From positions 13,098-77,097 of the forward strand of contig JAJDCM010000059.1 in the NCBI GenBank assembly GCA_029260825.1: a stretch of 64,000 nt of DNA, read 5' to 3'. Position 1 is the first letter of the stretch; each line of letters begins with the position of its first letter. The DNA is from Planctomycetota bacterium (GTDB lineage: Bacteria; Planctomycetota; JACOTG01; JAJDCM01). The notes under the pieces are model-generated. The model ran no database searches and was not told the DNA's origin. It saw only the letters and a program-made list of their open reading frames with translations. Made by a program: the position numbers and the translations under genes. Positions 8,655 through 64,000 of the stretch are shown here, one piece after another.

Positions 8655-8970
8655 AGCTCGTCCCTCTTCTTCCGACCACGTTTCCTCACGAAGTATCAGC
8701 CTGGAACAACCAAACTGACCTGGTATGGATGCCAGGCAATCCCGTTATTCCTTGTTGCGTACAAAGTCGAAGCAGCACGAACAACTTCTTCGAATTTCAT
8801 CGAAGTTGTTCACGGAAGGCTTCGAAACAAGCCCGCCAAACTCATCAAGAATAGCCATAAGCATCTGCCTTGCTGCAACATGCGCCCATTGACAGAGACC
8901 TCTCACTCCCCTATCATCCCCGGGGTCTCATGTCTTGTGTCAGAACACCCCCCCGATCAAATCCGGAATC

Positions 8971-9471
8971 ATGACCGACGATCAGCCGACCTTTGACGAA
9001 ATCTATGAGGAATTGCGGAGGATCGCCGTTCGCTTCATGCGAGGGGAGAGATCAAACCATACGCTTCAACCCACTGCTCTCGTCCATGAGGTCTACATCC
9101 GGCTCTGCCCGGACAAAAAGGGTTCATGGGAAAGCCGCGCGCATTTCTTGTCAACTGCCGCCCGCGCTGTCCGGAGAGTGCTCGTTGATCATGCCCGTCT
9201 ACACGGTGCAAGAGAAGGAAGGATGAACAAGATCACTCTGGGTGATCAAGTCGAGGATGCTCCAGACATTCGTCTCAACGCCATCGCACTGGATGAGGCC
9301 GTTCAAAAACTGACGGAGAAATCCAAGCGCAAGAGCCAGATAGTAGAGTTGCGGTTTTTTGCCGGCCTGACCATCGAGGAGACAGCCAAGGTCCTGGGAC
9401 TATCAAGTAGACTGGTGGACAAAGAGTGGCGGTTTGCACGTGCTTGGCTCAGGCGCGAAGTGAGCCGATAG
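8971..9471 (+). CDS. ECF-type RNA polymerase sigma factor of the Ser/Thr-kinase-associated type (ECF43-like)
   Basis: Sigma-2 region (RFMRGERSNHTLQPTALVHEVYIRL) and sigma-4 HTH (QIVELRFFAGLTIEETAKVLGLSSRLVDKEWRFARAWL). It sits 13 bp upstream of an STK gene, which is the classic pairing. Confidence 0.85.
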   Translation: MTDDQPTFDEIYEELRRIAVRFMRGERSNHTLQPTALVHEVYIRLCPDKKGSWESRAHFLSTAARAVRRVLVDHARLHGAREGRMNKITLGDQVEDAPDIRLNAIALDEAVQKLTEKSKRKSQIVELRFFAGLTIEETAKVLGLSSRLVDKEWRFARAWLRREVSR

Positions 9472-9484
9472 CAGGGAAATTCAA

Positions 9485-12220
9485 ATGACCCGAGACGAAG
9501 AAATCCAGGGTCTCTTCGACAAGGCCATCGACGTTGCGCCTGACGAGCGATCGGACTTCCTCGATCAGGAATGTGGTGCAGACCTGGACCTCCGAGACGA
9601 AGTCGAATCTCTACTTTCTCATCACGACCGAGATGTGGAGAGGCCACTCACCCAAAAAGTAGCGGATCAACTTCTGGACGCTATGGGGTTATCCGCATCC
9701 TCGATGGGGAAGATCCCCGATCGCCTGGGACCCTACGAAATCATCGAGAAGATCGGCGAAGGGGCGATGGGAACGGTGTACCTTGCCGAGCAGAAGAGCC
9801 CCGTTCTCCGCCAGGTTGCACTCAAGATCATCAAGCTTGGCATGGACACCAAAGAGGTCATTGCTCGGTTTGAATCCGAACGCCAGGCGCTCGCGATGAT
9901 GAACCACCCCAACATTGCCAAAATCCATGACGCGGGGACCTCTGACGCGGGACGCCCCTATTTCGTCATGGAGTATGTTCCAGGAATTCCCATCAGCAAG
10001 CATTGCGACCAGCAACGTCTCTCTACTCGCGAACGACTCGAGCTGTTTATCCAGGTATGTCATGGAGTGCAGCACTCCCACCAAAAAGGCGTCATCCACC
10101 GCGATCTCAAGCCATCAAACGTCATTGTCGTCATCCAGGACGGAAATTCAGTGGTGAAGATTATCGACTTCGGCGTAGCAAAAGCTATCTATTTTCCTCT
10201 GACCGAAAAAACACTGGTCACCAGCCTGGGACAGCCCATCGGAACGCCCGAGTACATGAGCCCCGAGCAGACCAATAATGTGAGGGACGACATTGACACC
10301 AGGACCGACATCTACTCCCTGGGAGTTCTGCTCTATGAGCTTCTCGTTGGAGAGCCACCTTTCGCTCTCCGGAAAACAGCTCTCGAAGAAGTCTTTCGGA
10401 GAATTCGGGAAGCCGATCCAGCCAAGCCCAGCACACGCATCACAAGCCTCGGAGAGGCAGCCATCGACACTGCAAGCCGCAGAAGTACCGACATCCGAAC
10501 ACTTGCGCGACAACTCCGGGGCGACCTGGACTGGATCTCACTCAAAGCAATGGAGAAGGATCGATCCAAGAGATACGCAGCAGCTACCGATCTTTCCGAC
10601 GACATTCAACGATACCTCGACTGTGAGCCGATCGTGGCGAGACCCCCCAGTGCATCTTACAGGCTCAAGAAGCTACTCCAAAAATACGCAGGCCTTGCAG
10701 CGGCTCTCGCGCTTGTCTTTCTGGTCACTCTCATAGGCGGCGGCGCAACAACAGCATTCTACTTCCAGGCAAAAAACGGGCAAAAGGAGGCAGAGCGGGA
10801 GCGAGAAGCTGTGCTTCGACTCTCAGATATCAGGGTCCTTCAGCAACTTGTCGCTGATTCAGACGAGTTGTGGCCCACCTATCCAGAGAAGATCGATGAG
10901 ATGGAGGCATGGCTCAAGAGAGCCGAGAAGCTCGTCGAAAACCTCCCAACCCATCAGGCTTCTCTTGCTGAACTCACGAAAAGGCTCGAGACAAACGAAA
11001 AGGAACCCGAGTCGACAGTCAGCGTCAGCGAGGGAGAGGATGTGCTCATCGGCAGTTCGCCAAGCACCCGAGGCAACCTGAGAGACACCCAGATAGAAAC
11101 ACAGTGGCAACTGGATATTCTTCGCGACCTGGTTCTGGGGTTGGAGACATTGCTGAACCCCGACCCGAACGTTGGAGTGCTAGCGCACGTGAAAAAACGC
11201 ATTCAGTTCGCAAAGACGCTCCATGTGAATACCATCGAATCTCACCGGAGAGACTGGACAAAAGCGATCAAATCGATCCGCAATGAAAAAGAATGTCCGG
11301 CATATCAAGGTTTGGAACTCAAGCCGCAACTCGGGCTCATTCCCATCGGGCGAGATCAAGAATCACTTCTCTGGGAGTTCTCTCACGCCCAATCAGGCGA
11401 GACTCCGGCGCGAGACGCAAATGGCCGGCTTCTTCTGACGGAGGAAACGGGCCTGGTGATGATCTTGATTCCCGGTGGAAAGTTTTGGATGGGAGCACAG
11501 AGAGAGAAGGAGCATCAACCCAACTACGATCCAGATGCTGAAGGAGATACCTACCCCCTCTACGAAGTACACCTTGACCCGTTCTTCATGTCCAAGTACG
11601 AAATGACTCAAGCGCAATGGAAAAGGTTCACGGGAGACAACCCGAGCGGGGTTGACCCAACAAACTACATTCTTCGATCAATCGGTGATAGCGGGGGACT
11701 TCTCCATCCAGTCGAACAAGTGAGCTGGCAGGACTGCTATCGAGTACTCGGACAGCTGAAACTTCGCCTCCCCACCGAAGCTCAGTGGGAATACTCCGCT
11801 CGAGCGGGAACTGGCTCCATCTGGTGGACAGGGGATGAACGCGAAACGCTACGTGGTTTTACAAACATCTTGGACATTTCCGCCAGAAAACATCACCCCT
11901 CCTTTGCAACCTCCGAACAGTGGGACGATGGATATCCAATGCACGCCTCTGTCGGTAGCTTTCCCCCCAACCCTTTCGGCCTATACGATGTACATGGCAA
12001 CGTCAGTGAGTGGTGCTGGGATCTGCTTTGCAGCTACGGACAGCAGCCCAGACCGGGTGACGGTGCCCGAATACAGAGTCGTTTCACCCTACGCATTTAT
12101 CGAGGTGGTCGCCATAACGGAGATGCACTCCGAGGACGCAGTGCTCTAAGGATGCACTCTCCCCCGGATTCGATCGCGAATGGCCTCGGAGTGCGCCCTG
12201 CTCGACCCATCGATCCTTGA
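9485..12220 (+). CDS. Transmembrane Ser/Thr protein kinase with N-terminal sigma-binding-like region and C-terminal formylglycine-generating-enzyme (FGE-sulfatase/SUMF1-like) domain
   Basis: Kinase motifs GEGAMGTVY, ALKIIK, HRDLKPSNV, DFGVAK, SPEQ. TM helix AGLAAALALVFLVTLIGGGATTAFYF. FGE-like C-terminus: GKFWMGAQ, YEVHLDPFFMSKYEMTQAQW, LPTEAQWEYSARAG, YDVHGNVSEWCWD, RGGRHNGDA. Confidence 0.85.
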   Translation: MTRDEEIQGLFDKAIDVAPDERSDFLDQECGADLDLRDEVESLLSHHDRDVERPLTQKVADQLLDAMGLSASSMGKIPDRLGPYEIIEKIGEGAMGTVYLAEQKSPVLRQVALKIIKLGMDTKEVIARFESERQALAMMNHPNIAKIHDAGTSDAGRPYFVMEYVPGIPISKHCDQQRLSTRERLELFIQVCHGVQHSHQKGVIHRDLKPSNVIVVIQDGNSVVKIIDFGVAKAIYFPLTEKTLVTSLGQPIGTPEYMSPEQTNNVRDDIDTRTDIYSLGVLLYELLVGEPPFALRKTALEEVFRRIREADPAKPSTRITSLGEAAIDTASRRSTDIRTLARQLRGDLDWISLKAMEKDRSKRYAAATDLSDDIQRYLDCEPIVARPPSASYRLKKLLQKYAGLAAALALVFLVTLIGGGATTAFYFQAKNGQKEAEREREAVLRLSDIRVLQQLVADSDELWPTYPEKIDEMEAWLKRAEKLVENLPTHQASLAELTKRLETNEKEPESTVSVSEGEDVLIGSSPSTRGNLRDTQIETQWQLDILRDLVLGLETLLNPDPNVGVLAHVKKRIQFAKTLHVNTIESHRRDWTKAIKSIRNEKECPAYQGLELKPQLGLIPIGRDQESLLWEFSHAQSGETPARDANGRLLLTEETGLVMILIPGGKFWMGAQREKEHQPNYDPDAEGDTYPLYEVHLDPFFMSKYEMTQAQWKRFTGDNPSGVDPTNYILRSIGDSGGLLHPVEQVSWQDCYRVLGQLKLRLPTEAQWEYSARAGTGSIWWTGDERETLRGFTNILDISARKHHPSFATSEQWDDGYPMHASVGSFPPNPFGLYDVHGNVSEWCWDLLCSYGQQPRPGDGARIQSRFTLRIYRGGRHNGDALRGRSALRMHSPPDSIANGLGVRPARPIDP

Positions 12221-12492
12221 AAGTAGTAGCTCTCCTCGCTCTTCATCATCGGTGCACCCACTCAAGACTTCCCACAGTCCGAAAGCCGAGGAGCCGGCTA
12301 ACTCAATAAGCGTTCTCGGTGATGTACCGCATCCTAAAAGACTGAGATACCCGGACTTGTGCGCCCAATAAGCACGGTAGGTGAGTTTTCACAGAAGATC
12401 AAAGAAGGTTGTCCTACAATTGCCCCTTCCGTCCAAGGCGAAAAAGAAAAGAACGAAATTGATGGCCCCTCAGGATCACAAACTCTAAGACC

Positions 12493-13971
12493 ATGCAGCG
12501 ACTCTCACTTCCAAGAAAGTGGATCGGCCTCCTGTGCCTTGCGTCCCTTCTTTCGGGCTGTGGCGACAAGGGGCCTCCAAACATCGTGTTGATCACGGTG
12601 GATACTCTCCGCGTGGACCATCTGTCCTATGCCGGATACTCACGGGAGACATCGCCGAACCTTGATGCACTCGCCGAGGAATCGATTCAGTTCACGAATG
12701 CTTTTGCAAACCGAGGACAGACCTGGCCATCACTCACCACCGTCATGACCGGTCTCCACCCGATCGCCCACGGAGTGAGAAAAAATGGCCAGATGCTCTC
12801 GGCTGAGATTCCCGCTCTCGCTCAACTCTTGAAGGAAGGTGGCTACGAAACCGGCTCCTTCCTCACTAACTACTGCAATGCGCCCAATCGCGGGTTCGAT
12901 ACGAAGAAATACTTCTGGAACACCACCATTCCTCAGCACAAGTGGGACTCCCAGATGACTGCCGCTTGCCAGAAGTGGCTGGCCGAGCGATCGGGAGACC
13001 AGCCTTTCTTCTGCTGGCTTCATCTCATGAGCCCTCACGCCGACTTCGACCCTCCTGAGCCCTATCGCACACGCTTTACGAACGGAAAGGCCGGATCCAT
13101 CACTGGGAAAAAGAGCGACATGGATCGAATCATGCTCGGAGAAGTCATTCCATCGGAAGAAGACATCCAGCATCTCATCGATCTCTATGATGGCGAGATC
13201 GCGTTCACCGATTCGCTCATCGGGAATCTACTGGAAGATCTTTCAAAGAAAGGCGTACTCGAGAACTCCGTCGTCGTCTTCCTTGCCGACCATGGCGAGG
13301 AGCTCTTGGACCACAAGAACTACGTTTATCACACCTGTTCTCTTTTCGATTCAGTTCTGCGAGTTCCGCTGCTGATTCGACTTCCCGAAGCAGAACGAAA
13401 GGGCACAAAGATCAACCAGGTGGCTTCTCTTGAAAACATCCTTCCGACTCTCCTTGGGCTCGCCGGACTACCGACTCCAGCTCACATCGACCGCACGAGT
13501 CTCCTCGAGGCCTTTCCCGGAGAAGACGAGGGAGCCGTCATCGCCGAATGGACAGGAAGAAATGAGTGGACTGGATCCGAGGACCCGGCCCTTGAAGTGG
13601 ATGGAGAGCGAGCCCCCCGGATCTTCGCCCTTCGCAACGATGAGTACAAATACATCTACAATCCGGGCGGCTTTTCGCCACGAGGTCATCCTTACCAGTT
13701 ACTCCCCACCGGCGGATTCCCCTATGAACTCGAGGAGCTTTACCACATCTCAAGTGATCCCGGAGAAACGAAGAACATTGCCTCGGATCGCCCGGACATT
13801 GTGGCCCGTCTTCGCCAAGATGTGGTCCGCTGGCTCGCCAGAGATCGGCAACTGAAAGGAAAAAGCGGAGCTCCAGACGCTGCGACCCGGAAAACTCTCG
13901 AATCCCTTGGTTACGTCGTCGAGGAGGAGAAGGCCGGAGAAAACCCGTCAAAGAAAGAAGGGAAACGTTGA
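12493..13971 (+). CDS. Lipoprotein of the alkaline-phosphatase superfamily with sulfatase-like fold but a Thr-type (NPP/phosphodiesterase-like) nucleophile motif
   Basis: Lipobox LLSGC. N-terminal NIVLITVDTLRVDH metal-binding block. Where sulfatases have C-x-P-x-R, this protein has GQTWPSLTTVMTGLHPIAHG, which resembles the nucleotide pyrophosphatase/phosphodiesterase TFPNHYSIVTG Thr-nucleophile block. The C-terminal DEYKYIYNP...LYHISSDPGETKN is sulfatase-like. Confidence 0.75.
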   Translation: MQRLSLPRKWIGLLCLASLLSGCGDKGPPNIVLITVDTLRVDHLSYAGYSRETSPNLDALAEESIQFTNAFANRGQTWPSLTTVMTGLHPIAHGVRKNGQMLSAEIPALAQLLKEGGYETGSFLTNYCNAPNRGFDTKKYFWNTTIPQHKWDSQMTAACQKWLAERSGDQPFFCWLHLMSPHADFDPPEPYRTRFTNGKAGSITGKKSDMDRIMLGEVIPSEEDIQHLIDLYDGEIAFTDSLIGNLLEDLSKKGVLENSVVVFLADHGEELLDHKNYVYHTCSLFDSVLRVPLLIRLPEAERKGTKINQVASLENILPTLLGLAGLPTPAHIDRTSLLEAFPGEDEGAVIAEWTGRNEWTGSEDPALEVDGERAPRIFALRNDEYKYIYNPGGFSPRGHPYQLLPTGGFPYELEELYHISSDPGETKNIASDRPDIVARLRQDVVRWLARDRQLKGKSGAPDAATRKTLESLGYVVEEEKAGENPSKKEGKR

Positions 13972-14054
13972 TCGCGGAAACACCGAAGAATGCTCATCGA
14001 CCTTCAAGCCAACCTTCAAACCCCGTCGGTCATTCGTCGCTTCTCCGTGCTCTG

Positions 14055-15440
14055 ATGCTTTCTTTCTTGTCGCTGGCCGTTTGGGGATGTCCTTCTGATC
14101 CACCAAGAACCAATTCGCATCCCAACGTCGTCATCTTTCTCGCCGATGACCTCGGGATGGGAGACGTTGGCTACCTGGGAAGTGAGATCCCCACCCCTCA
14201 CATCGATCGTCTTGCAAATAACGGTCTCGTGTTCCACAGATTCTATACGGAACCCTACTGCACGCCTTCCCGAGCCGCTCTCTTGACCGGAAGGAATCCG
14301 ATTCGATACGGTCTGAGCTCTTCCGTGCTTCGTCCCTGGAGCGAATCCGGACTTCCCTCGTCGGAAACACTTCTCTCCGAGACCTTCCAGGCGGCCAACT
14401 ACTACACGGCCTTGGTCGGGAAATGGCACCTTGGTCACCGGAAAAAAGAGATGCACCCCAACTCGAGAGGCTTCGATCATTTCTACGGGCACCTGGGAGG
14501 TCGCATCGACTACTTCACCCATCAGGTTTCCTACCGGAAACTCGATGGTCAAAAGCTCGGACTTGACTGGCAAAGAAACGGCAAAGGAATCACAGAAAAA
14601 GGCTACTCCACCGATCTTCTGGCTCAGGAAGCGGTAAAAGTCGTGAACACGAGCGATCCAGGTCGTCCTCTGTTTCTCCTTCTATCTTTCAACGCTCCTC
14701 ACCCACCCCTTCAGGCAACTCCTCAAAAACTCGAGGAGTTCAAGAACATCGGAAGTCCCCAGCGCCAGACCTATGCCGCCATGGTGGCATCCCTTGACGA
14801 CGCAGTAGGTGATGTAACTCGGGCCTTGCAGGAAGAAGGCATGCTCGACAACACATTGATTGTCTTCATGAGCGACAACGGAGCAGCTCCGGCAAAGGGC
14901 GGGAGAAACGGACAGTATCGAGGAGGCAAAGCGTCGACGTGGGAGGGCGGGATCAGGGTCCCGGCATTTCTTCATTGGCCCCAGAAGATTCCCGGGGGAC
15001 AGCACACCCAGCAACTCATATCGAGCCTTGATCTATTGCCGACCATCGCTTCTGCGGTCGGCGTCCCTGTAACCTCCCATCTCCCTCTGGACGGAAAAGA
15101 TCTGTGGGAACTCATTCATCTGGGAGCCACCGAGCCGCGCCAGGATCTCCATTTTGCGGCACTGAACGGAGAGCTTCTTTTTCTTACCACGCTTCGCGAA
15201 ACCTGGAAGCTTGTCCGAGAGGTTGATGGGCGCGATGGAACATCCAGGGAGCGCCTGTTCGATTTGACCGACCCGACCGAACGGAACGATGTCCTCGCGG
15301 AGCAAGCTAAGATCGCCTCGGAACTCAGTCTTTCCCTCGACAAGTGGTTGGCTCTGGGGAAGGGAGAGATCCAGGCAGAGGAAGAAGATCCCCCGGTGCA
15401 GTGGCGACCTCCGACGGATTGGGCCAAGGCGGCCGAGTGA
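14055..15440 (+). CDS. Arylsulfatase-family (formylglycine-dependent) sulfatase, lipoprotein
   Basis: Canonical signature PYCTPSRAALLTGR (C-x-P-x-R). N-terminal VVIFLADDLGMGDVG. GKWHLG. Lipobox LAVWGC at the internal Met at 14055. The ORF-track TTG start at 13968 overlaps the upstream stop. Confidence 0.8.
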   Translation: MLSFLSLAVWGCPSDPPRTNSHPNVVIFLADDLGMGDVGYLGSEIPTPHIDRLANNGLVFHRFYTEPYCTPSRAALLTGRNPIRYGLSSSVLRPWSESGLPSSETLLSETFQAANYYTALVGKWHLGHRKKEMHPNSRGFDHFYGHLGGRIDYFTHQVSYRKLDGQKLGLDWQRNGKGITEKGYSTDLLAQEAVKVVNTSDPGRPLFLLLSFNAPHPPLQATPQKLEEFKNIGSPQRQTYAAMVASLDDAVGDVTRALQEEGMLDNTLIVFMSDNGAAPAKGGRNGQYRGGKASTWEGGIRVPAFLHWPQKIPGGQHTQQLISSLDLLPTIASAVGVPVTSHLPLDGKDLWELIHLGATEPRQDLHFAALNGELLFLTTLRETWKLVREVDGRDGTSRERLFDLTDPTERNDVLAEQAKIASELSLSLDKWLALGKGEIQAEEEDPPVQWRPPTDWAKAAE

Positions 15441-16860: not shown

Positions 16861-17733
16861 AGCGGTGTCTCGGCGGGACCAAGGGGCTCCGTCCCGTCAG
16901 GAGCAAGATCCAGAACCGGCTGCCGTCGATACGGTGCATAGCCGGGGGGATAGAGCGTGAAATGTTTCCGGTGCGTGCCACATCGGATCACCAGCAACGG
17001 GAAATCCGGACCTGTCTTACGGTGTCTGAGGTGATGCTCGGTCACCTTGCACGGCGGATCGCCAGGCTGCTTCAGAGGGCAGTGGGTCGGCACGTGACAA
17101 TGATACGCTCCATCGTACGGAGTCATGATGAAAAAGCCGCGTGCGCTCGGACGAGCAGTATGCGAGAATGACACCACTGGCGATTGGAAGTCTTATCCAA
17201 AGCGACCGAAGCCAGTGACGAGGCCCGCAGGTGCAATCTGCGGGCTTCACTTTTTTCTCGCGCCTTGCTTCTGACGTCGCATCCAGCCGATCATCCTACC
17301 CGACAGCACCCGAACTTTCCCCTTGCTCCTGTCTTCGATTCTTCAAGTCCGTGCCACGGAACGCGCAACGAGAATTGCGACTCGTGCCTTTGGGCGCGCA
17401 ACGTAACAGGGGTACCCATTCCTACGAACCGATCGAGTGCTGGGCCGGATCCCTCTTGTATTTTGGGGCTCCGAGCGGCCCTGCATATTATTTTCATCCG
17501 AAAGAAGCAGGCCCTCATGACGTACATTTGTGGCATAGTGACTGTCGGATTTGTGTCTCTAAAGTTTGATAGGAGTCGCTGACATGGAACACTACCCCAT
17601 GCAGCTCACTAATGTTCTCGCCCCCCCCTCAGTTCTCCAAGGTCTCTGACCAACCGCTTCTCTCCCCCCGCAAAAGAGCTGAGTGCGGTCCTCAAACCAA
17701 GTCGAGAAACAACCCTCATTGGAGTCCTGTGTC

Positions 17734-19380
17734 ATGAAGATCTCGCGATTTCTTCTTCTACTCATCTTCGCCTTGTGCGCACCGGGTTACGGAGTCGCCC
17801 AATGCGATTTTGAGGAATTGCAGAAGGTTTTCGACCCAAACGCCTCTCAATTCGACTGGTTTGGTCATTCAGTATCCTTCGATGGCGATGTCGCAATCGT
17901 CGGGTCATTTCAAGACGATGATACGGGCCTGAATAATGGGTCGGTATTCATCTATCGCTCGAATGGATCTACCTGGACCGAAGAACAGAAGATCAACGGA
18001 CAAGCGTCGAGCAGAGGATTCGGTGCATCGGTAACAATTGAGGATGATGTGGCAGTCGTAGTTGCTATCGCTTCGGGCAAAGTACTAGTCTTTCGCTTCA
18101 ACGGAACCTCGTGGGAAGAAGAAACAGTTTTGCCTGTCCAAATACCGCGCTCCGTCTCTCTCGACAATGGTGTTCTGATCGTTGGTTCAGACGACAGCGT
18201 TGGTGGCGAAGCTAGTATTTTTACCTATGATGAGGATCAATGGATTCTTGAGGACACGATCACGGCGAGTGATGCCTCGTTTGATGATCAATTTGGTAGA
18301 GCAGTATCCATAGACGGCCAGCATCGTGTCGCCATTATTGGCGCACCAAAGAATGACGATGCCTGTCCGCAGAGTCTAAACTGTGACTCAGGGTCGAGCT
18401 ATATTTTTCGCTACGATGGTTCGTCATGGGTTCAGGAGCAAAAGATAACTGCAAGCGATGCTGACAGAGTGGACGAATTTGGTTCTACGGTGAGTATCGT
18501 CGCGGATCAAGCTGTTGTTGGCGGCAGCGGACCAGCCATACCAGGCAAAAAAGCATATGCCTTTCGATTTACTAGTGGGAATTGGATCGAAGAACAGCGG
18601 TTAACCGCCCCTAACGCAGCTCTGGGAAATAGTGTTGTCTTGGGAGAACGAGGCCTCGTGGCTGTCGGTGGCGTTTCTGGTCAGTCAAATTTGGGAGAGG
18701 TATACACGTTCAAGTTCGACGGAAACACATGGAACTCGGACCAGGTGCTAACCGCAAGCGACGCTAAGATGTTCGACGATTTCGGGTTTGCAGTCGACAT
18801 AAGCGGAAGCGAGCTTCTTGTCGGTGCGCGCCTTGCTAGTGAACCTACGCACTCAGGAGCAGCGTACTTTCTCCGTCAGAATTTCGATTGCTCTAAAGGA
18901 AACGTAAATACAGGAGTGGGGCCAGCAACAGATGTTCTCTTCATAAACGGTTCTCCGGGAAACATCAACGCTACTGTCAACGTCTCTCTTGGTGAAGCGG
19001 TGACTTTTGCACTAGACGCAGCACCCGAGGGCCCGGTTTCAGGGAACTACCTCCTGTATGTTTGGAGCGGCTTTCCCGTCAAATGTGGAGATCTCATGGC
19101 TATGGGAGAGATGATTGGCTGCATGGTCAATCCTACTCCGTTTATGAGACCTCAAAACCCACAACCATTCCGTTGTCTTCGAAGTAGCGGCATTCCGAGC
19201 GTTGTATGTAGCGGAATCGTTGAGAAGGCGGGACCCGCAACAGTTCCTTGGGATCTCACCCTAAATCAAGGGTTTCAGCAGTCCGCCGTGTTCACACTCC
19301 AAGCAATCATCCAGGACCAAGGTGCGGGTAATGCAACGGGCTATTCTGTGACGAACGCTGCAACTGTTGTGGCTGAGTAA
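17734..19380 (+). CDS. Secreted FG-GAP-repeat beta-propeller protein with shared CTD
   Basis: Signal peptide MKISRFLLLLIFALCAPGYGVAQ. About 7 repeats of FG.SV...GD.A.VGS..DD.....GS.YIF....G.W (e.g. DWFGHSVSFDGDVAIVGSFQDDDTGLNNGSVFIYR). C-terminal ~160 aa = CTD. Confidence 0.8.
   Translation: MKISRFLLLLIFALCAPGYGVAQCDFEELQKVFDPNASQFDWFGHSVSFDGDVAIVGSFQDDDTGLNNGSVFIYRSNGSTWTEEQKINGQASSRGFGASVTIEDDVAVVVAIASGKVLVFRFNGTSWEEETVLPVQIPRSVSLDNGVLIVGSDDSVGGEASIFTYDEDQWILEDTITASDASFDDQFGRAVSIDGQHRVAIIGAPKNDDACPQSLNCDSGSSYIFRYDGSSWVQEQKITASDADRVDEFGSTVSIVADQAVVGGSGPAIPGKKAYAFRFTSGNWIEEQRLTAPNAALGNSVVLGERGLVAVGGVSGQSNLGEVYTFKFDGNTWNSDQVLTASDAKMFDDFGFAVDISGSELLVGARLASEPTHSGAAYFLRQNFDCSKGNVNTGVGPATDVLFINGSPGNINATVNVSLGEAVTFALDAAPEGPVSGNYLLYVWSGFPVKCGDLMAMGEMIGCMVNPTPFMRPQNPQPFRCLRSSGIPSVVCSGIVEKAGPATVPWDLTLNQGFQQSAVFTLQAIIQDQGAGNATGYSVTNAATVVAE
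18895..19377 (+). other. Shared C-terminal domain (CTD) instance 2
   Basis: GNVNTGVGPATDVLFINGSPGN...NYLLYVWSGFP...IGCMVNPTPFMRPQNPQPFRCLRSSGIPSVVCSG...GNATGYSVTNAATVVAE. Confidence 0.75.
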
Positions 19381-22103: not shown

Positions 22104-22952
22104 ATGACCTCGCTTTCAGCCTCTGACTCCAATCTTCACCGGAACTCGTTTCGATCAGCCCTCGTCCTGGCGGCATTGAGCAGCCTCTCCCACGGCTGCT
22201 CCTCCGCAAGCCTCCCGACCCAACCTGAAGAAGCCTCGCTTCAACCGGCCGTCATTCGTGCGTTCGCCAAACCAAATCCCGAGGCCGATGCTACCGATCA
22301 AACCTCGGTTGAGACCGACGAGACTCTCTCCATCGAGCTGGCCTTCATCACCCACCTGGAGATGAACCTCCCGGAACAGGACGTCTACATCGAACGAGAG
22401 CCAGGATCCGGAGAAGTCTTCCGACCCACCCAGGGAGATAACGACATGTCGGCGCTCCTTTACAAGACCGCCGTCACCGTTCCCCACAATCCATTCGACC
22501 CGGCGCAGATCGGCCCGCACCCCAAAGGCGAGTCATTTGGCATGACCCTCGGGGAATGGCTCGCCCACCGGGGCACCGGGGTGTACGCCGCCAAAGATGG
22601 AGCGGGAACCCTCGACCTCGAGTTCACCGGCCTCGTCCCCCGCGGGATCTACACCCTCTGGCACGTGTTCGGTGCCTTTCCACCGACCAAGCCATTCTCG
22701 GGCACTCTGAAGCTGCCGCTCGGAGCTCGAGATGGCTCGGAGAGTGTGTTCACAGCGGATGAACAAGGCCGAGCTCGCTTCCGCCACACCTTCACCCCGG
22801 AGCTCGAGCTGTCCGATGTCTGGACCCGCTCCATGCTCGCGCTGAACTACCACAGCGACGGCAAGACATATGGAGGACTCCCGGGCGATTTCGGCCTGAA
22901 CGCCCACATCCCCCTGTTCGTCATGCTCCCGTTCCGGGACGGCTTGCGATGA
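22104..22952 (+). CDS. Hypothetical lipoprotein (possible periplasmic partner of the downstream di-heme enzyme)
   Basis: Lipobox LSSLSHGCSS. 282 aa. Sits immediately upstream of a MauG/CCP-family gene. Confidence 0.6.
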   Translation: MTSLSASDSNLHRNSFRSALVLAALSSLSHGCSSASLPTQPEEASLQPAVIRAFAKPNPEADATDQTSVETDETLSIELAFITHLEMNLPEQDVYIEREPGSGEVFRPTQGDNDMSALLYKTAVTVPHNPFDPAQIGPHPKGESFGMTLGEWLAHRGTGVYAAKDGAGTLDLEFTGLVPRGIYTLWHVFGAFPPTKPFSGTLKLPLGARDGSESVFTADEQGRARFRHTFTPELELSDVWTRSMLALNYHSDGKTYGGLPGDFGLNAHIPLFVMLPFRDGLR

Positions 22953-23029
22953 ACAGCACTGCAGACGACCGACGACCCTTTCTCCGACCCCCTTTCAAAA
23001 CTCCACTCCAGAAAGAAAGGATTCATGCC

Positions 23030-24289
23030 ATGAAAGTCTTCCTCTCCCTTTTGTGCGCCGCGCTCTGCGCAAACAGCGCCGAAGCTCGAAACCCCGAAAG
23101 CGAGTTCCACGGCCAACGCACCCTGCCAGATTCCGTCACAAATAGAGACTATTATGATGATGGCGCTCCCTCCCCGGCCAAGGTGGAGTTAGGACGATTA
23201 CTGTTCTTCGATCCGATCCTGAGCGGCAACCGGAACATCTCATGCGCCACGTGCCACCATCCGAGCTTCGGCACTTCGGACGAAGTCTCGCTGTCCCTGG
23301 GGGAGGGGGCTAAAGGACTCGGTCCGGATCGTATTTCGTCTCGGTCCCACATCGGAGGTGTTTACGAACGCATCCCCCGGAACTCACCCGCCCTGTTCAA
23401 TCTCGGCGCAAGGGAATACACCGTCCTCTTTCACGACGGTCGTGTCGAGGTGGACAAGAACGCGGGCTACGAGAGTGGCTTCATCTCTCCCGCACGCTGG
23501 AAGCTCCCTCGAGGACTGAGCAACGCTCTGGCTGCCCAGGCCATGTTTCCCGTGACCTCACCGGCTGAGATGGCGGGACAGCAAGGAGAAAACCCGATCG
23601 CCGACGCCCGCGCGCGCAATCAGGTGGGCGGCGAAGGAGGTGTCTGGGATCTCCTGACCCTTCGACTCCGCTCCATCCCGGAGTACAAGGAGAGATTCTC
23701 GGCGGCGTTTCCGTCGGAAGTGAGAATCACCGACGACATCGACATGGTCCTGGCGGCGAACGCGATCGCCGCATTCGAAGCTCACTCATTTCGAGCGGAC
23801 CAGAGTCCCTTCGATCGCTACCTTCGGGGAGATGAAAACGCATTGAGCTCAAAAGAGGTCCGGGGGATGAACCTCTTTTACGGCAAGGCGAGCTGCAGCG
23901 CTTGCCATTCGGGCAAGTTTCAAACCGATCATGGATTTCACGCCATCGCCATGCCCCAGGTCGGTCCGGGAAAGTCGGACGGCTGGGATTCAGGCTACTG
24001 GAGCAAGAGTGGATACCAGGCGTTTCCAGAGGATCAGGGGCGGGGCCGAGTGACCGGCCGGATCGAAGATAACTACCGCTTCCGAACACCATCGCTCCGA
24101 AACGTAGCCCTGACCGCTCCCTACGGCCATAGCGGAGCCTATCCCTCCCTGGAAGAAGTCGTGCGCCACCATCTCCAACCCGTCGCGACGCTCCATGCAT
24201 ACGATGGGTCGGCCGCCTCCCTCCCGCCCCTGAACTTTGTCCTCGAGCACTCGGCCCGCGGTTCCTCGTTTCTTTCCTCCACTCCTTGA
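23030..24289 (+). CDS. Di-heme cytochrome c peroxidase / MauG-family enzyme
   Basis: Signal peptide MKVFLSLLCAALCANSAEA. Two heme-binding motifs CATCHH and CSACHS. Family block FRTPSLRNVALTAPYGHSGAYPSLEEVVRHH. Confidence 0.8.
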   Translation: MKVFLSLLCAALCANSAEARNPESEFHGQRTLPDSVTNRDYYDDGAPSPAKVELGRLLFFDPILSGNRNISCATCHHPSFGTSDEVSLSLGEGAKGLGPDRISSRSHIGGVYERIPRNSPALFNLGAREYTVLFHDGRVEVDKNAGYESGFISPARWKLPRGLSNALAAQAMFPVTSPAEMAGQQGENPIADARARNQVGGEGGVWDLLTLRLRSIPEYKERFSAAFPSEVRITDDIDMVLAANAIAAFEAHSFRADQSPFDRYLRGDENALSSKEVRGMNLFYGKASCSACHSGKFQTDHGFHAIAMPQVGPGKSDGWDSGYWSKSGYQAFPEDQGRGRVTGRIEDNYRFRTPSLRNVALTAPYGHSGAYPSLEEVVRHHLQPVATLHAYDGSAASLPPLNFVLEHSARGSSFLSSTP

Positions 24290-41893: not shown

Positions 41894-42055
41894 TGATCCG
41901 CGAGCCTCCAGAGTATCCTGTTTCCAGGGATAAAGACCCCGCTGAGAGCGGAGCGGATGCAAGGATTGCCAAAATAATGCAATCCCTACTCCATCTTACG
42001 CTCAGGAGCCGGATCTTGCTCCCAAAGGATCACCTGGGGCCCGGGAAAGACCGAT

Positions 42056-60641: not shown

Positions 60642-61244
60642 ATGGACGCCTCCCGCAACGACGAGAACAAACCCGACCCGATCGGCGAACAAGCAACGTC
60701 CCTCCTCGGTAGAATCGAAGACGGCGACCCACTTGCCGCCGAAAAGCTCTTGCCACTGGTCTACAACCAGCTCCGAGCACGCGCCGGAGCTTACTTTCGA
60801 GGGCAGCTCGCCGAACACTCTCTTCAGCCCACAGCTCTCGTCCACGAGGCGTACCTTCGGCTCATCAGATCAGGCGGGAGCTGGAAGGATCGAAGTCATT
60901 TCTGCGCGATCGCTGCCACCGCGATGCGTCAGATTCTGTTGAACCACGCAAGAGATCGACGGAGCCGGAACCGACCTCAGGGCCGGGTGGACATCCCCAT
61001 CGACGGGCTTTCCACTCCCACCGCCGCCCCCGCAGTCGATCTCATCGCTCTTGATGACGCCCTCACTCACTTACGGGACCTGGACGAAGCGGACGCCGAC
61101 CTCGTTGAACTCCGTTTCTTCACCGGCCTCACCGTCGAAGAGGTCGCCCGGCAAAAAGGCGTGTCCTCGCGCACGATCGAAAAGAGATGGCGTCGAGTCC
61201 GTGCTTGGCTCAACCGCGAGCTGGGCGAGGAGAACCAGAATTGA
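60642..61244 (+). CDS. ECF-type sigma factor (paralog of 8971..9471), STK-associated
   Basis: HSLQPTALVHEAYLRL (cf. HTLQPTALVHEVYIRL). Sigma-4 LVELRFFTGLTVEEVARQKGVSSRTIEKRWRRVRAWL. Divergent from the M23 peptidase gene. Its stop overlaps the TTG of the downstream kinase (TTGA). Confidence 0.85.
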   Translation: MDASRNDENKPDPIGEQATSLLGRIEDGDPLAAEKLLPLVYNQLRARAGAYFRGQLAEHSLQPTALVHEAYLRLIRSGGSWKDRSHFCAIAATAMRQILLNHARDRRSRNRPQGRVDIPIDGLSTPTAAPAVDLIALDDALTHLRDLDEADADLVELRFFTGLTVEEVARQKGVSSRTIEKRWRRVRAWLNRELGEENQN

Positions 61245-64000
61245 CCCCTCGCGACCGTTATCGCCTCATCATGGAACTCTTCGACGATGCATGCGAACTC
61301 CCTGCTGAAGAGAGATCTTTTTTTCTCGACTCCCGATGCGGCGACGATCTGGACCTCAAGAAAGAAGTCGAGTCGCTCCTCAACCACGATGCCGTGACCA
61401 GCGGCCATGCGGACGCTGCCGATCACGGTGCCGCAATCGAGGCCCTCGCCCTCGATATTGCCAGCAAAGACCAGGAAACCGCCTTCGTCCACCTACAACA
61501 AATCGGCCCCTATCGCATCCTTCGGGAAATCGCCCGAGGTGGCATGGGAGTGATCTACGAAGCCGAGCAGCAGGCTCCCAAACGCCGGGTAGCGCTGAAA
61601 GTCATTCGTCCCGGAATGGTCACCGCCGATCTCTTGCGCCGATTCAAACACGAAGCCCAGATCCTTGGCCGCCTCCAGCATCCCGACATCGCACAAATTT
61701 TTGAGGCCGGAATCGCCGAGCAGGATAACGACACTCTACCGTTCTTCGCCATGGAGCTCATCGACGGCCTTCATCTCGACGAGTTCGCACGAAGCCAAAA
61801 CCTGGACACCTCCCAATGTGTTGCACTCCTCGCCCGGGTCTGTGACGCTGTCCAGCACGCTCATCAAAATGGGATCATCCATCGCGATTTGAAACCCGCC
61901 AATATCCTCGTCTCCGACTCCCATGCAAACGCGTCACCCAAAAGCCATTCCCACGGCGTCACCACGACAAAAAGCCAGCGCCGAACCACAACCCTGGCAT
62001 CCGTCGGGCACTGCAAGATTCTCGACTTCGGAGTCGCCCGGGTCACTGATCCTGATTCCCATCTTTTGACCGCATCCACCGACATCGGGCAGATCATCGG
62101 AACCCTGGCCTACATGAGCCCGGAGCAAATCCGCTCCAATTCCAACGAACTCGATACCCGATGCGACGTCTATGCCCTTGGGGTTATCCTCTATGAGGTC
62201 CTCGCTGGAACTCGCCCCATCGAGGTCCGCGGTCTGCCAATCACCGAAGCCGCCCGTCGCATCGAACAAACGGAGCCAGCGCGACTGTCCTCCCATCAGG
62301 CCAACCTCCGGGGCGACCTCGAAACGATCGTTCACAAAGCCCTCGCCAAGGACCGAGACCTGCGATACGCAACCGCCGGCGAACTCGGTGCGGATTTGTG
62401 GCGCTATCTCCACGACGAACCGATCCTGGCTCGCCCTCCTTCCTCCGCTTACTACCTCACAAAGTTCGCCCGCCGAAACAAGGCCTTGGTCGCCGCTCTG
62501 GGAATCTCCCTTGCAGGACTCATCATCGCATTGATCGGAGTCACCCTCGGCCTGATCTCGTCGAAACGCCAGCTCGCCCGAAGCAACGAGATGAGATCCG
62601 TCGTCGAGGACATGCTCCTGTCGGCTCGCCCCAGCGAAGCCCTCGGTGAAGATACCGCCCTCATGCGGAGAGTCCTCCTCGAGACCTCAGACCGTCTGGA
62701 CCGGGGTGAAGTCAGGGATCCCAAAGTCGTGGGGGAGCTCCGCGCTCTCATCGCCTCTACTTTTCTTTGGCTCGAGGATCCATCGAAAGCCCTCGAGCAG
62801 CTTGATAAGGCCCACCCACTTCTCGCTCTGGAATTCCGTCCCGTTCATCCCGTAATTCTTGCAGCACAGGTCGACAAAGGAATCGCGCTCAGCCTGTGCA
62901 ACCGAACGACCGAAAGCGAAGAGCTCCTTCGAAAGACCTTGCAACATTGCGAACAAGAACTCGCACCCGATCACGCCCTGACTTTACGGGCCGCTGATGC
63001 TCTGGCCGCAACTCTCGGAATGACGGAGCAGTGGGCGGAGGCTGAAGAGTACCTCAAGAATATCTCCATCGCTCGAGCCCGACTTCTCGGCAACGATCAC
63101 CACGACACGGTTGATTCACTGCGCAAACTTGGAATGGTCTATGAAGGACAGGGGCGAATCAAGGATGCAGAACGACTTCTCCTGGAAGCCCTGGATCAAC
63201 AAGCCCAGCTTCGAATCACAAAAGACCCACGAGTCTTGTCCACACTCTGGACTCTCGGCACGCTGCTCGGCGAGAACGGACGACCAAAAGATGCTCTCCC
63301 ACTGTGGGAGGAAGCTCTTGAGGTGAGTGAAGCAAGCTTCGGTCCGTCCCACCCTGGAACCCTCCCGTTTCGGCAGATCCTCGGAGTGAATCTACTCGGG
63401 CTCGGTGAAGAAAGTAAAGGCATCCGTTATCTGACTCGAGCCGCGCAGATCGAAATCCTATCCGGACTCGCTCCATCCGAAAGCACAGTTATCCTTACTC
63501 AAACACTCCTTGATTCTGGCGCTCTCGATGAGTGCGAACGACTGGCCCTTGAGATCATCGAGTCGAACACCTCGGAATCCGATGAGACTGCCGAATTCGT
63601 CCGGATCATCTCGCACCTGACCGAGGTCTACCAGCGAACACGACGTCCAAAGGAGCAGGAACAGTGGACGCTCCTATACGTATCGTCGAGCAGAAGGATA
63701 CTCGGGGATACCGCTCTTGAGACGATCCAAGCCACGAACAATCTCGGCGCCCTCTACCTCGCTCAAGAACGTATTGAAGAGGCGAAACTCGTTCTCATAC
63801 CTGTCGCTACCGCCTGCTCCGAACTGGGAGACAAGGCGCCCGGTGTCGCCTGGGTTTGCACCCACTCCCTCGCCGAAGCCTACCTCGGCGCCTCCGAATG
63901 GGGGGCCGCAACGAAACACCTCGAAAACGCCATCCTCGGATACGAAACCATACTCGCTACCGGCGAGTACGATCGTCAAATTCCGGCGTTCCTCGATATG
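61241..64000 (+). CDS. Partial CDS (continues off-window): transmembrane Ser/Thr kinase with N-terminal sigma-binding-like region and C-terminal TPR repeats
   Basis: Own translation: the frame is open from 61241 to the window end, and it is not in the ORF track because it has no stop. Alternative ATG at 61269 (MELFDDACELPAEERSFFLDSRCGDDLDLKKEVESLLNHD, homologous to the N-terminus of 9485..12220). Kinase motifs ARGGMGVIY, ALKVIR, HRDLKPANILV, DFGVAR, SPEQ. TM ALVAALGISLAGLIIALIGVTLGLI. TPR-like C-terminus. Confidence 0.8.
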   Translation, partial: MTPRDRYRLIMELFDDACELPAEERSFFLDSRCGDDLDLKKEVESLLNHDAVTSGHADAADHGAAIEALALDIASKDQETAFVHLQQIGPYRILREIARGGMGVIYEAEQQAPKRRVALKVIRPGMVTADLLRRFKHEAQILGRLQHPDIAQIFEAGIAEQDNDTLPFFAMELIDGLHLDEFARSQNLDTSQCVALLARVCDAVQHAHQNGIIHRDLKPANILVSDSHANASPKSHSHGVTTTKSQRRTTTLASVGHCKILDFGVARVTDPDSHLLTASTDIGQIIGTLAYMSPEQIRSNSNELDTRCDVYALGVILYEVLAGTRPIEVRGLPITEAARRIEQTEPARLSSHQANLRGDLETIVHKALAKDRDLRYATAGELGADLWRYLHDEPILARPPSSAYYLTKFARRNKALVAALGISLAGLIIALIGVTLGLISSKRQLARSNEMRSVVEDMLLSARPSEALGEDTALMRRVLLETSDRLDRGEVRDPKVVGELRALIASTFLWLEDPSKALEQLDKAHPLLALEFRPVHPVILAAQVDKGIALSLCNRTTESEELLRKTLQHCEQELAPDHALTLRAADALAATLGMTEQWAEAEEYLKNISIARARLLGNDHHDTVDSLRKLGMVYEGQGRIKDAERLLLEALDQQAQLRITKDPRVLSTLWTLGTLLGENGRPKDALPLWEEALEVSEASFGPSHPGTLPFRQILGVNLLGLGEESKGIRYLTRAAQIEILSGLAPSESTVILTQTLLDSGALDECERLALEIIESNTSESDETAEFVRIISHLTEVYQRTRRPKEQEQWTLLYVSSSRRILGDTALETIQATNNLGALYLAQERIEEAKLVLIPVATACSELGDKAPGVAWVCTHSLAEAYLGASEWGAATKHLENAILGYETILATGEYDRQIPAFLDM

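What the first reader, a model, noticed from the sequence alone, without database searches (positions are those of the whole stretch)
8971..12220. ECF sigma / Ser-Thr kinase module whose kinase carries an FGE-sulfatase (formylglycine-generating-enzyme-like) sensor domain, located next to two sulfatase-fold genes
A sigma (ECF43-like) and a kinase lie 13 bp apart. The kinase N-terminus (LFDKAIDVAPDERSDFLDQECGADLDLRDEVESLLSHH) is homologous to the N-terminus of the second kinase at 61241, so it is a candidate sigma-interaction region. The extracytoplasmic part is an FGE/SUMF1-like domain, and the next two genes are sulfatase-family enzymes. This suggests a sulfated-glycan-responsive regulatory unit. 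A second paralogous module (60642-64000) uses a TPR C-terminus instead.
Basis: partly seen in the sequence, partly recalled or inferred. Interest (0 to 1): 0.6.

Follow-up and report, generated by a model that had tools for sequence, protein, structure and literature searches.

The report
Sigma factor, kinase, dead-FGE sensor
This is an ordinary planctomycete-type signalling pair: a membrane kinase that probably switches on its neighbouring sigma factor by phosphorylation. The kinase's outer "sulfatase-modifying" domain lacks the catalytic residues, and related kinases show no conserved link to sulfatase genes.

Summary
An ECF sigma gene (8971-9471; PF07638, TIGR02999) lies 13 bp upstream of a 911-aa Hanks-type kinase (9485-12220). 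The kinase has one membrane helix and an outer domain that hits PF03781 (FGE-sulfatase, 1.5e-39). Two sulfatase-fold genes follow, and a second sigma/kinase pair with a TPR sensor lies at 60642-64000.

- **Sigma/kinase pair:** both sigmas carry the ECF43 hallmark, LQPTALVHE (a Thr in place of the acidic DAED motif). The kinase's N-terminal 45-aa motif co-occurs strongly with an adjacent sigma (24/36 against 1/52 kinase genes, p = 1e-11).
- **FGE domain:** it is not an FGE. The first catalytic Cys is deleted and the second is Ala, in this protein and across its family. Its closest folds are non-FGE members (TvpA, PvdO, PorK, pFGE).
- **Sulfatase link:** none of 15 related FGE-sensor kinase loci has an adjacent sulfatase.
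- **First neighbour gene:** it lacks the CxPxR sulfatase motif.

Periplasmic SUMF1-type domains are already reported as the third most common partner of Planctomycetota Ser/Thr kinases. The same ectodomain is also fused to caspase-like and TIR domains. Verdict: a new member of a known kind, with unknown ligand and regulon, and low interest.

The parts
8889..8917 (+). Sigma-70-like promoter candidate (TTGACA-17-TATCAT, 11/12 matches), 54 bp upstream of the sigma start codon
   Evidence: This is a consensus match only. It fits constitutive expression of a sigma that is controlled after translation.
8971..9471 (+). ECF sigma factor, 166 aa, ECF43-like. The candidate phospho-acceptor is Thr35 in LQPTALVHE (sigma region 2.2).
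   Evidence: PF07638 4.9e-41; TIGR02999 175 bits, above the 126 cutoff; motif position; meaning of the motif from PMC13147305 and PMC8999054.
9497..9628 (+). Kinase N-terminal helical motif (residues 5-48; family consensus [42 protein letters not shown]). Candidate sigma-associated region.
   Evidence: Shared with kinase 2. No Pfam family even at E = 10. Co-occurs with an adjacent upstream sigma: 24/36 against 1/52 kinase genes, Fisher p = 1.1e-11.
9734..10633 (+). Hanks-type Ser/Thr kinase catalytic domain (about residues 84-383), cytoplasmic, with all catalytic motifs intact
   Evidence: Pkinase 5e-46. GEGAMG, VALK, HRDLKPSN, DFG and SPE motifs are present.
10688..10744 (+). Single transmembrane helix (residues 402-420)
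   Evidence: Hydropathy scan. The basic stretch RLKKLLQKY lies on its N-terminal (cytoplasmic) side.
10775..11284 (+). Extracytoplasmic six-helix region (residues 431-600) with no Pfam family. It forms one unit with the FGE-fold domain.
11285..12220 (+). FGE-fold (C-type-lectin-like) domain lacking the catalytic Cys pair. Pfam match at residues 659-907, preceded by a conserved extension from about residue 601.
12493..13971 (+). Sulfatase-fold lipoprotein with T-W-P-S-L in place of C-x-P-x-R. It is not formylglycine-dependent. Whether it belongs functionally to the module is unproven.
   Evidence: PF00884 1e-52; alignment with the neighbouring gene and with PDB sulfatases; lipobox LLSGC.
13968..15440 (+). 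Canonical Cys-type S1 sulfatase (CTPSRAALLTGR). It overlaps the previous gene by 4 bp. Whether it belongs functionally to the module is unproven.
   Evidence: PF00884 6.1e-69; motif read from the translation.
60642..61244 (+). Paralogous ECF43-like sigma, 200 aa, with LQPTALVHE (Thr64)
   Evidence: PF07638 2.2e-46; TIGR02999 177 bits; 45% identical to sigma 1; motif position.
61241..64000 (+). Paralogous kinase with the same N-terminal motif, a TM helix at residues 416-434, and TPR_12/TPR_10 repeats as ectodomain. It runs off the window end.

Best explanation
This is a transmembrane signalling pair of the ECF43 type. The sigma factor is made constitutively but cannot bind RNA polymerase well, because its region 2.2 has Q-P-T-A where other ECF sigmas have the acidic D-A-E-D.

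The 911-aa kinase sits in the inner membrane. Its N-terminal helical motif and active Hanks kinase domain face the cytoplasm. A helical stalk plus an FGE-fold, lectin-like domain face the periplasm.

The proposed sequence of events is:
1. An unidentified periplasmic or envelope ligand binds the ectodomain.
2. The kinase is activated.
3. The kinase phosphorylates the sigma on Thr35, and possibly on linker residues.
4. The added negative charge lets the sigma bind core polymerase and transcribe its regulon.

What is shown: domain identities, topology, intact kinase motifs, the QPTA motif, loss of the FGE catalytic cysteines, and the statistical link between the N-terminal motif and sigma adjacency. 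What is inferred by analogy with EcfP/PknT and EcfK/PknS: phosphorylation of Thr35 and the mechanism of activation. What is unknown: the ligand and the regulon. The FGE-fold domain acts as a binding module, not as a sulfatase-maturing enzyme. The two downstream sulfatase-fold lipoprotein genes are possible targets only because they are adjacent.
For: - Sigma: PF07638 and TIGR02999 above cutoffs. LQPTALVHE is present in both window sigmas. It matches the ECF43 QxTA motif, whose Thr is the phosphosite in EcfP and EcfK (PMC13147305, PMC8999054).
- Kinase: all catalytic motifs are present and there is a single TM helix.
- The sigma/kinase arrangement recurs: 24 of 36 N-motif kinases in other genomes have an upstream sigma. 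L003 and L023 have sigma plus an FGE-sensor kinase.
- PknS also has about 81 N-terminal helical residues ahead of its kinase domain.
- The FGE cysteines are absent in the window protein and in the consensus of 56 homologues.
- The ectodomain model is confident (pLDDT 92). It is closest to the ligand-binding or non-FGE members TvpA, PvdO, PorK and pFGE.
- A periplasmic SUMF1 domain is the third most common STK partner in Planctomycetota (PMC11032199).
- A sigma-70-like promoter lies ahead of the sigma gene.
Against: - There is no experimental evidence for phosphorylation in this organism.
- ECF43 membership was not confirmed with the ECF Hub classifier.
- Sigma 1 lacks the first 22 positions or so of the PF07638 model.
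- No ligand, regulon or target promoter was identified. No shared motif was found upstream of 32 related sigma genes.
- Twelve of 36 N-motif kinases lack an adjacent sigma, so the motif does not strictly require a neighbouring sigma.
- The motif-sigma association could partly reflect common descent of one kinase clade.
Confidence: 0.7

Rival explanations
1. The FGE-like ectodomain senses sulfated glycans, or unmodified sulfatase CxPxR peptides in the way pFGE/SUMF2 does. The sigma then drives the two adjacent sulfatase-fold genes, so the whole is a sulfated-glycan-responsive unit.
For: - The two sulfatase-fold genes directly follow the kinase on the same strand. No terminator-like site lies between them.
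- They are the only such genes in the 64 kb window.
- The second gene carries a canonical CTPSR motif.
- ECF43 regulons in the studied cases include neighbouring genes (PMC13147305).
Against: - None of 15 related FGE-sensor kinase loci has an adjacent sulfatase. Two of 15 have one 4-5 genes away, against 5 of 72 for other kinases (p = 0.35).
- The closest relatives with the full architecture (L001, L003, L006, L023) have unrelated neighbours.
- The same ectodomain is fused to caspase-like and TIR domains.
- The first neighbour gene lacks CxPxR.
- The window protein has Ser where FGEs have the groove Trp of GNVWEW.
- The 272-bp gap holds no recognisable promoter, RNA element or unusual structure.
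Confidence: 0.1
2. The ectodomain (helical stalk plus dead FGE fold) is a general danger or invader receptor of Planctomycetota that can be plugged into different outputs: kinase, TIR or caspase-like protease. In this locus it routes an envelope-threat signal to transcription through an ECF sigma. This resembles PknS/EcfK responding to amoebae and PknT/EcfP responding to polymyxin.
For: - Homologues 40-52% identical over the whole 481-aa ectodomain carry Pkinase (about 36), Peptidase_C14 (21) or TIR (2) among the top 120 hits.
- The TIR and kinase fusions have one TM helix before the module.
- FGS/FGE-fold domains are recurrent binding modules in conflict systems and in DGR variable proteins (PMC7159879). 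Metacaspase-FGE fusions are known (PMC3501461).
- TvpA is the top structural match.
- The region equivalent to the DGR variable region is more variable than the fold core (entropy about 2.0 against 1.1).
Against: - No defence-system model matches the ectodomain. PADLOC hits cover only the generic kinase, TIR and caspase domains.
- There is no DGR template repeat or reverse transcriptase in the window.
- Most caspase fusions show no TM helix, so their topology differs.
- Gene neighbourhoods are heterogeneous and show no defence-island signature.
Confidence: 0.15
3. The C-terminal domain is a working formylglycine-generating enzyme that matures the adjacent Cys-type sulfatase in the periplasm, and the kinase is bifunctional (as in the NCBI product name 'bifunctional serine/threonine-protein kinase/formylglycine-generating enzyme family protein').
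For: A strong PF03781 hit. Sequence matches to solved FGEs at E = 1e-16 to 1e-19. A CTPSR sulfatase lies two genes downstream.
Against: - Both copper-binding catalytic cysteines are missing. The first lies in a 3-residue deletion and the second is Ala, in alignments to T. curvata, S. coelicolor and human FGE.
- The consensus of 56 homologues also has Ala at the second position.
- The top structural neighbours are non-FGE members of the fold.
Confidence: 0.02

Closest known systems
EcfP/PknT (Vibrio parahaemolyticus) and EcfK/PknS (Xanthomonas citri): ECF43 sigma factors activated by phosphorylation from an adjacent Hanks-type receptor kinase
   Same: - An adjacent sigma and single-pass kinase with no anti-sigma gene between them.
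- Sigma region 2.2 lacks the acidic DAED motif and has Thr at the phosphosite position (QPTA here; STTA in EcfP, QATE in EcfK).
- The kinase has an N-terminal helical extension of about 80 residues before the catalytic domain, as in PknS.
   Different: - The ectodomain differs: here it is a helical stalk plus an FGE fold.
- The organism is a different phylum, with relatives in Planctomycetota.
- The stimulus and regulon are unknown.
- Phosphorylation has not been tested.
- Sigma 1 is N-terminally shorter than the family model.
Single-pass Planctomycetota Ser/Thr kinases with a periplasmic sulfatase-modifying-factor (SUMF1/FGE-sulfatase) domain
   Same: The architecture is identical: Pkinase, one TM helix, periplasmic PF03781. 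It is reported as the third most common STK partner domain, present in almost all Planctomycetota species surveyed (PMC11032199). NCBI already names such proteins.
   Different: Most members lack the N-terminal sigma-associated motif (0 of 35 kinase-fused homologues) and lack an adjacent sigma. The window protein joins an ECF43-type kinase head to this ectodomain. That combination is also seen in L003 and L023.
Non-catalytic or non-FGE members of the FGE/C-type-lectin fold: TvpA (DGR variable protein), PvdO, PorK/GldK, pFGE (SUMF2)
   Different: It is fused to a kinase through a membrane helix and a six-helix stalk. No DGR is present. It is not a T9SS or pyoverdine component.
Metacaspase-FGE-sulfatase and TIR/FGS fusions of bacterial conflict systems
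   Same: The same ectodomain family, including the helical part at 40-47% identity, is fused to Peptidase_C14 or TIR in Planctomycetota. The architectures are described in PMC3501461 and PMC7159879.
   Different: Here the output is a kinase plus a sigma factor, not a protease or NADase. No NTPase, vWA or MoxR partners lie nearby.

Membership tests
ECF43-type (phosphorylation-dependent) ECF sigma factors | [quoted passage not shown] | tested here: met
   PF07638 at 4.9e-41 and 2.2e-46; TIGR02999 at 175 and 177 bits against a cutoff of 126. That TIGR02999/PF07638 corresponds to ECF43 rests on my own recollection and was not tested.
ECF43-type (phosphorylation-dependent) ECF sigma factors | Region 2.2 lacks the acidic DAED/DxxD motif and carries a Thr at the phosphosite position (QTTA-like consensus) | tested here: met
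   Both sigmas have LQPTALVHE (Thr35 and Thr64). The motif definition comes from PMC13147305 and PMC8999054.
ECF43-type (phosphorylation-dependent) ECF sigma factors | A Hanks-type Ser/Thr kinase is co-encoded next to the sigma, with no anti-sigma factor | tested here: met
   The gaps are 13 bp and a 4-bp overlap. No anti-sigma domain appears among the neighbours.
ECF43-type (phosphorylation-dependent) ECF sigma factors | Assignment by the ECF Hub group HMMs, and direct phosphorylation by the kinase | not testable with these tools
   The classifier is not available here and no biochemistry is possible.
Hanks-type Ser/Thr protein kinase | Gly-rich loop, VAIK Lys, HRD catalytic loop, DFG and APE-like motifs | tested here: met
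   GEGAMG91, VALK111, HRDLKPSN205, DFG228, SPE259; Pkinase 5e-46.
Formylglycine-generating enzyme (SUMF1/FGE) | FGE/C-type-lectin-like fold (PF03781) | tested here: met
Formylglycine-generating enzyme (SUMF1/FGE) | Catalytic, copper-binding Cys pair (human C336/C341; GGSxxCHxSYCxRYR) | tested here: not met
   The window protein has GGR---HNGDALRGR. The first Cys falls in a deletion and the second is Ala. The family consensus GGxFxxxAxxARSAxR also lacks both.
Formylglycine-generating enzyme (SUMF1/FGE) | Structural Ca2+-site and groove residues of the GNVWEW segment | tested here: inconclusive
   HGNVSEW keeps the Asn and Glu but has Ser for the Trp. The family consensus keeps GNVWEW. The residue roles are recalled from the FGE literature and were not checked here.
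S1 formylglycine-dependent sulfatase (gene 12493-13971) | C/S-x-P-x-R nucleophile motif and the DD metal motif | tested here: not met
   T-W-P-S-L and V-D-T align with C-T-P-S-R and A-D-D of the neighbouring gene and with PDB sulfatases. The fold itself is present (PF00884 1e-52).
S1 formylglycine-dependent sulfatase (gene 13968-15440) | C/S-x-P-x-R nucleophile motif | tested here: met
   YCTPSRAALLTGR; PF00884 6.1e-69.
DGR (diversity-generating retroelement) variable protein | A template repeat matching the 3' variable region, plus a nearby reverse transcriptase | tested here: not met
   No repeat of 11900-12260 occurs anywhere in the window. No RT was found among the ORFs scanned. Only the fold resembles TvpA.

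The most novel reading that the evidence does not exclude
The 481-aa ectodomain (six-helix stalk plus catalytically dead FGE fold) is a single planctomycetal receptor module that evolution has wired to three different outputs: a sigma-phosphorylating kinase, a TIR domain and a caspase-like protease. On this reading it is a transmembrane 'pattern-recognition' family. This locus is the version that turns recognition of an envelope or invader cue into an ECF-driven transcriptional response instead of cell death.
Probability: 0.12. Interest if true: 0.55.

Novelty: new member of a known kind. Interest (0 to 1): 0.2.

Why it matters
It matters little beyond annotation. The analysis shows that the label 'FGE-sulfatase' on planctomycetal receptor kinases should not be read as a link to sulfatase biology, because the domain is a cysteine-less binding module and sulfatase neighbours are not conserved.

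Two modest leads remain:
- The unannotated 45-aa N-terminal motif marks kinases that travel with ECF43-type sigmas. It is a testable candidate for the sigma-docking element, and PknS structural work left the equivalent region unresolved.
- The stalk-plus-FGE ectodomain is shared by kinase, TIR and caspase-like proteins. A ligand found for one would therefore inform all three.

Tried and rejected
- **Active FGE:** rejected, because the Cys pair is absent.
- **DGR-diversified sensor:** rejected. No template repeat exists near the 3' end or anywhere else in the window, and no RT was found.
- **ECF target-promoter search:** counting bipartite motifs upstream of 32 related sigma genes gave nothing above shuffled controls (maximum 5 against 3-5). 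No motif was therefore available to test upstream of the sulfatase genes.
- **The 272-bp gap:** the consensus scan found no promoter or terminator in it. There was no Rfam hit and no unusual RNA structure (z = +1.1).
- **Pfam scan of the N-terminal motif and helical stalk at E = 10:** no family for the motif, and only weak spectrin-like noise for the stalk.
- **PADLOC:** only generic kinase, TIR and caspase hits.
- **Exact look-up of the source contig:** the kinase is not on record in the contig index. The window proteins are singletons on one NCBI contig of 114,265 bp with no names. The closest full-length relative, P0123 (42% identity), is also not on record.
- **FG-GAP link:** FG-GAP proteins appear near several FGE-sensor kinases. 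A similarity search did not support an association.
- **Iyer et al. 2020** (the primary ECF43 paper) is not held in the library.
Full report
**Observation**

- A 166-aa ECF sigma (8971-9471) is followed after 13 bp by a 911-aa protein (9485-12220).
- Pfam gives Sigma70_ECF PF07638 (4.9e-41) for the sigma. For the second protein it gives Pkinase (residues 84-303, 5e-46) and FGE-sulfatase PF03781 (residues 659-907, 1.5e-39).
- NCBIfam places both window sigmas in TIGR02999 above its cutoff (175 and 177 bits against 126).
- The two following genes (12493-13971 and 13968-15440) both hit PF00884 Sulfatase. They are the only sulfatase-fold genes in the 64 kb window.
- The second module is real. It comprises a sigma at 60642-61244 and a kinase from 61241 to the window end, with TPR_12/TPR_10 repeats.
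- The two kinases are 38% identical from residue 7 through the membrane helix, and this span includes the N-terminal motif. The two sigmas are 45% identical.

**Anatomy of the kinase**

- All Hanks-kinase catalytic motifs are intact: GEGAMG, VALK, HRDLKPSN, DFG and SPE.
- There is one hydrophobic helix at residues 402-420, preceded by basic residues. The kinase domain is therefore cytoplasmic and residues 431-911 are extracytoplasmic.
- An AlphaFold2 model of residues 431-911, built on 56 homologues, is confident (pLDDT 92.2, pTM 0.89). It shows a six-helix region (431-600) packed against an FGE-fold domain.

**Is the C-terminal domain an FGE?**

No. In alignments to the solved FGEs of T. curvata, S. 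coelicolor and human, the segment GGSFLCHESYCNRYR corresponds to GGR---HNGDALRGR. The first catalytic Cys falls in a three-residue deletion and the second is Ala.

The consensus of 56 homologues, GGxFxxxAxxARSAxR, shows that this holds for the whole family.

TvpA-like domains are the targets of diversity-generating retroelements, so I looked for one. No template repeat of the 3' end exists in the window, and no reverse transcriptase was found.

**The sigma and the N-terminal motif**

Both sigmas carry LQPTALVHE in region 2.2. In ECF43 sigmas the acidic DAED motif is replaced by a QTTA-like motif. The Thr of that motif is the residue phosphorylated by the adjacent kinase in EcfP/PknT and EcfK/PknS, and phosphorylation restores the negative charge needed to bind the beta-prime subunit (PMC13147305, PMC8999054). 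The window sigmas fit this pattern.

A sigma-70-like promoter (TTGACA-17-TATCAT) lies just upstream of sigma 1. This is compatible with constitutive expression and control after translation.

The 45-aa N-terminal motif of the kinase has no Pfam family. I fetched 80 loci from species-representative genomes with the kinase as query and classified their 99 kinase genes by a motif HMM. I also recorded whether a PF07638-type sigma lay immediately upstream. Only the 88 genes with at least 1 kb of upstream sequence in the locus were tallied.

| Kinase genes | Adjacent upstream sigma | No adjacent sigma |
|---|---|---|
| With the N-terminal motif | 24 | 12 |
| Without the motif | 1 | 51 |

Fisher p = 1.1e-11. 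PknS likewise has 81 N-terminal residues predicted to be helical and unresolved in its crystal structure.

**The sulfatase link**

No close orthologue exists in the searched collections. The best full-length relatives are 34-46% identical. P0123 is 42% identical. The window proteins are singletons in a collection of 15 billion proteins.

I therefore tested synteny at family level, using 15 independent loci that encode kinases with this ectodomain:
- L001-L006, L009 and L023, tested by tblastn with both window sulfatases;
- seven further contigs with precomputed Pfam annotation.

None has a sulfatase adjacent to the kinase. Two have one 4-5 genes away. Among the 72 other kinase loci, 5 hold a sulfatase (Fisher p = 0.35).

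The neighbours of the four closest relatives with the full architecture are unrelated to sulfatases: Kelch, DUF748, permease, peptidase and unknowns.

The first downstream gene has T-W-P-S-L and V-D-T where its neighbour and solved sulfatases have C-T-P-S-R and D-D. It is a sulfatase-fold lipoprotein but not a formylglycine-dependent sulfatase. Only the second gene has a canonical CTPSR motif.

The 272-bp gap between the kinase and these genes has no terminator-like or sigma-70-like site, no Rfam match and no unusual structure.

**What the ectodomain is related to**

A search with residues 431-911 returned homologues at 40-52% identity over nearly the full length, mostly from Planctomycetota. 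Among the top 120 hits:
- about 36 are fused to Pkinase;
- 21 are fused to a caspase-like Peptidase_C14;
- 2 are fused to TIR;
- the rest are mostly fragments.

The TIR and kinase fusions have a membrane helix in front of the module. Most caspase fusions do not.

None of the 35 kinase-fused homologues carries the N-terminal sigma-associated motif. The window protein therefore combines an ECF43-type kinase head with a promiscuous ectodomain. That combination recurs in L003 and L023.

The helical part alone matches 1423 clusters (50% identity) at E <= 1e-10.

**Comparison with the literature**

- A survey of Planctomycetota Ser/Thr kinases reports the sulfatase-modifying-enzyme domain as the third most common partner. 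[quoted passage not shown]
- Metacaspase-FGE-sulfatase fusions were catalogued in 2012 (PMC3501461).
- FGS domains have been discussed as binding modules of conflict systems (PMC7159879).
- ECF43 kinases are known to carry many different ectodomains (PMC13147305).

**Verdict**

The sigma/kinase reading, and the reading of the N-terminal motif as sigma-related, are supported. The 'FGE' is a catalytically dead binding domain.

This is a new member of a known kind, with unknown ligand and regulon. Interest is low (0.2). The most useful leftovers are the N-terminal motif as a candidate sigma-docking element and the sharing of one ectodomain among kinase, TIR and caspase-like proteins.

Noticed in passing
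window 12493-13971 (+): This sulfatase-fold lipoprotein has T-W-P-S-L where S1 sulfatases have C-x-P-x-R, and V-D-T where they have the DD metal motif. It is probably not a formylglycine-dependent sulfatase. It may use a Thr nucleophile or be a pseudo-enzyme.
   Followed up: partly
window 39404-41962 (-): An 852-aa ORF whose first 180 residues are an ECF sigma (Sigma70_r2 plus r4_2). About 670 residues follow with no Pfam hit. This is a third ECF-type regulator in the window, with a long C-terminal extension. A similar sigma-with-extension protein of 1027 aa appears in L084.
   Followed up: no
homologues P0001-P0120; window 10775-12217: The whole 481-aa ectodomain (helical stalk plus FGE fold) is shared at 40-52% identity by kinase, caspase-like (PF00656) and TIR proteins of Planctomycetota. 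The kinase and TIR versions have a TM helix before it. Most caspase versions do not.
   Followed up: partly
L082 8001-13061; L085 5440-10355; L087 5000-10463: Kinases with the FGE-fold ectodomain often occur as tandem or divergent paralogue pairs. L082 also has a PF07638 sigma 4 kb away on the opposite strand.
   Followed up: no
window 11999-12019 (kinase residues 839-845): The window protein has GNVSEW where the family consensus and true FGEs have GNVWEW. The Trp of the presumed binding groove is replaced by Ser in this protein only.
   Followed up: no
window 22949-24289 and 50481-52127 (+): Two di-haem cytochrome c peroxidase (CCP_MauG) paralogues lie in one 64-kb window. A 1311-aa GH38 alpha-mannosidase with a PA14 domain is also present at 24561-28496.
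   Followed up: no
window 17683-19380 (+); L082, L085, L087: FG-GAP repeat proteins lie within a few genes of several FGE-sensor kinases, including the one in this window. A similarity search did not support a specific association.
   Followed up: partly
window 61241-61273: Kinase 2 is drawn from a TTG that overlaps the sigma stop by 4 bp. An in-frame ATG 10 codons downstream (..IMELFDD..) is an alternative start, and the gene runs off the window end.
   Followed up: no
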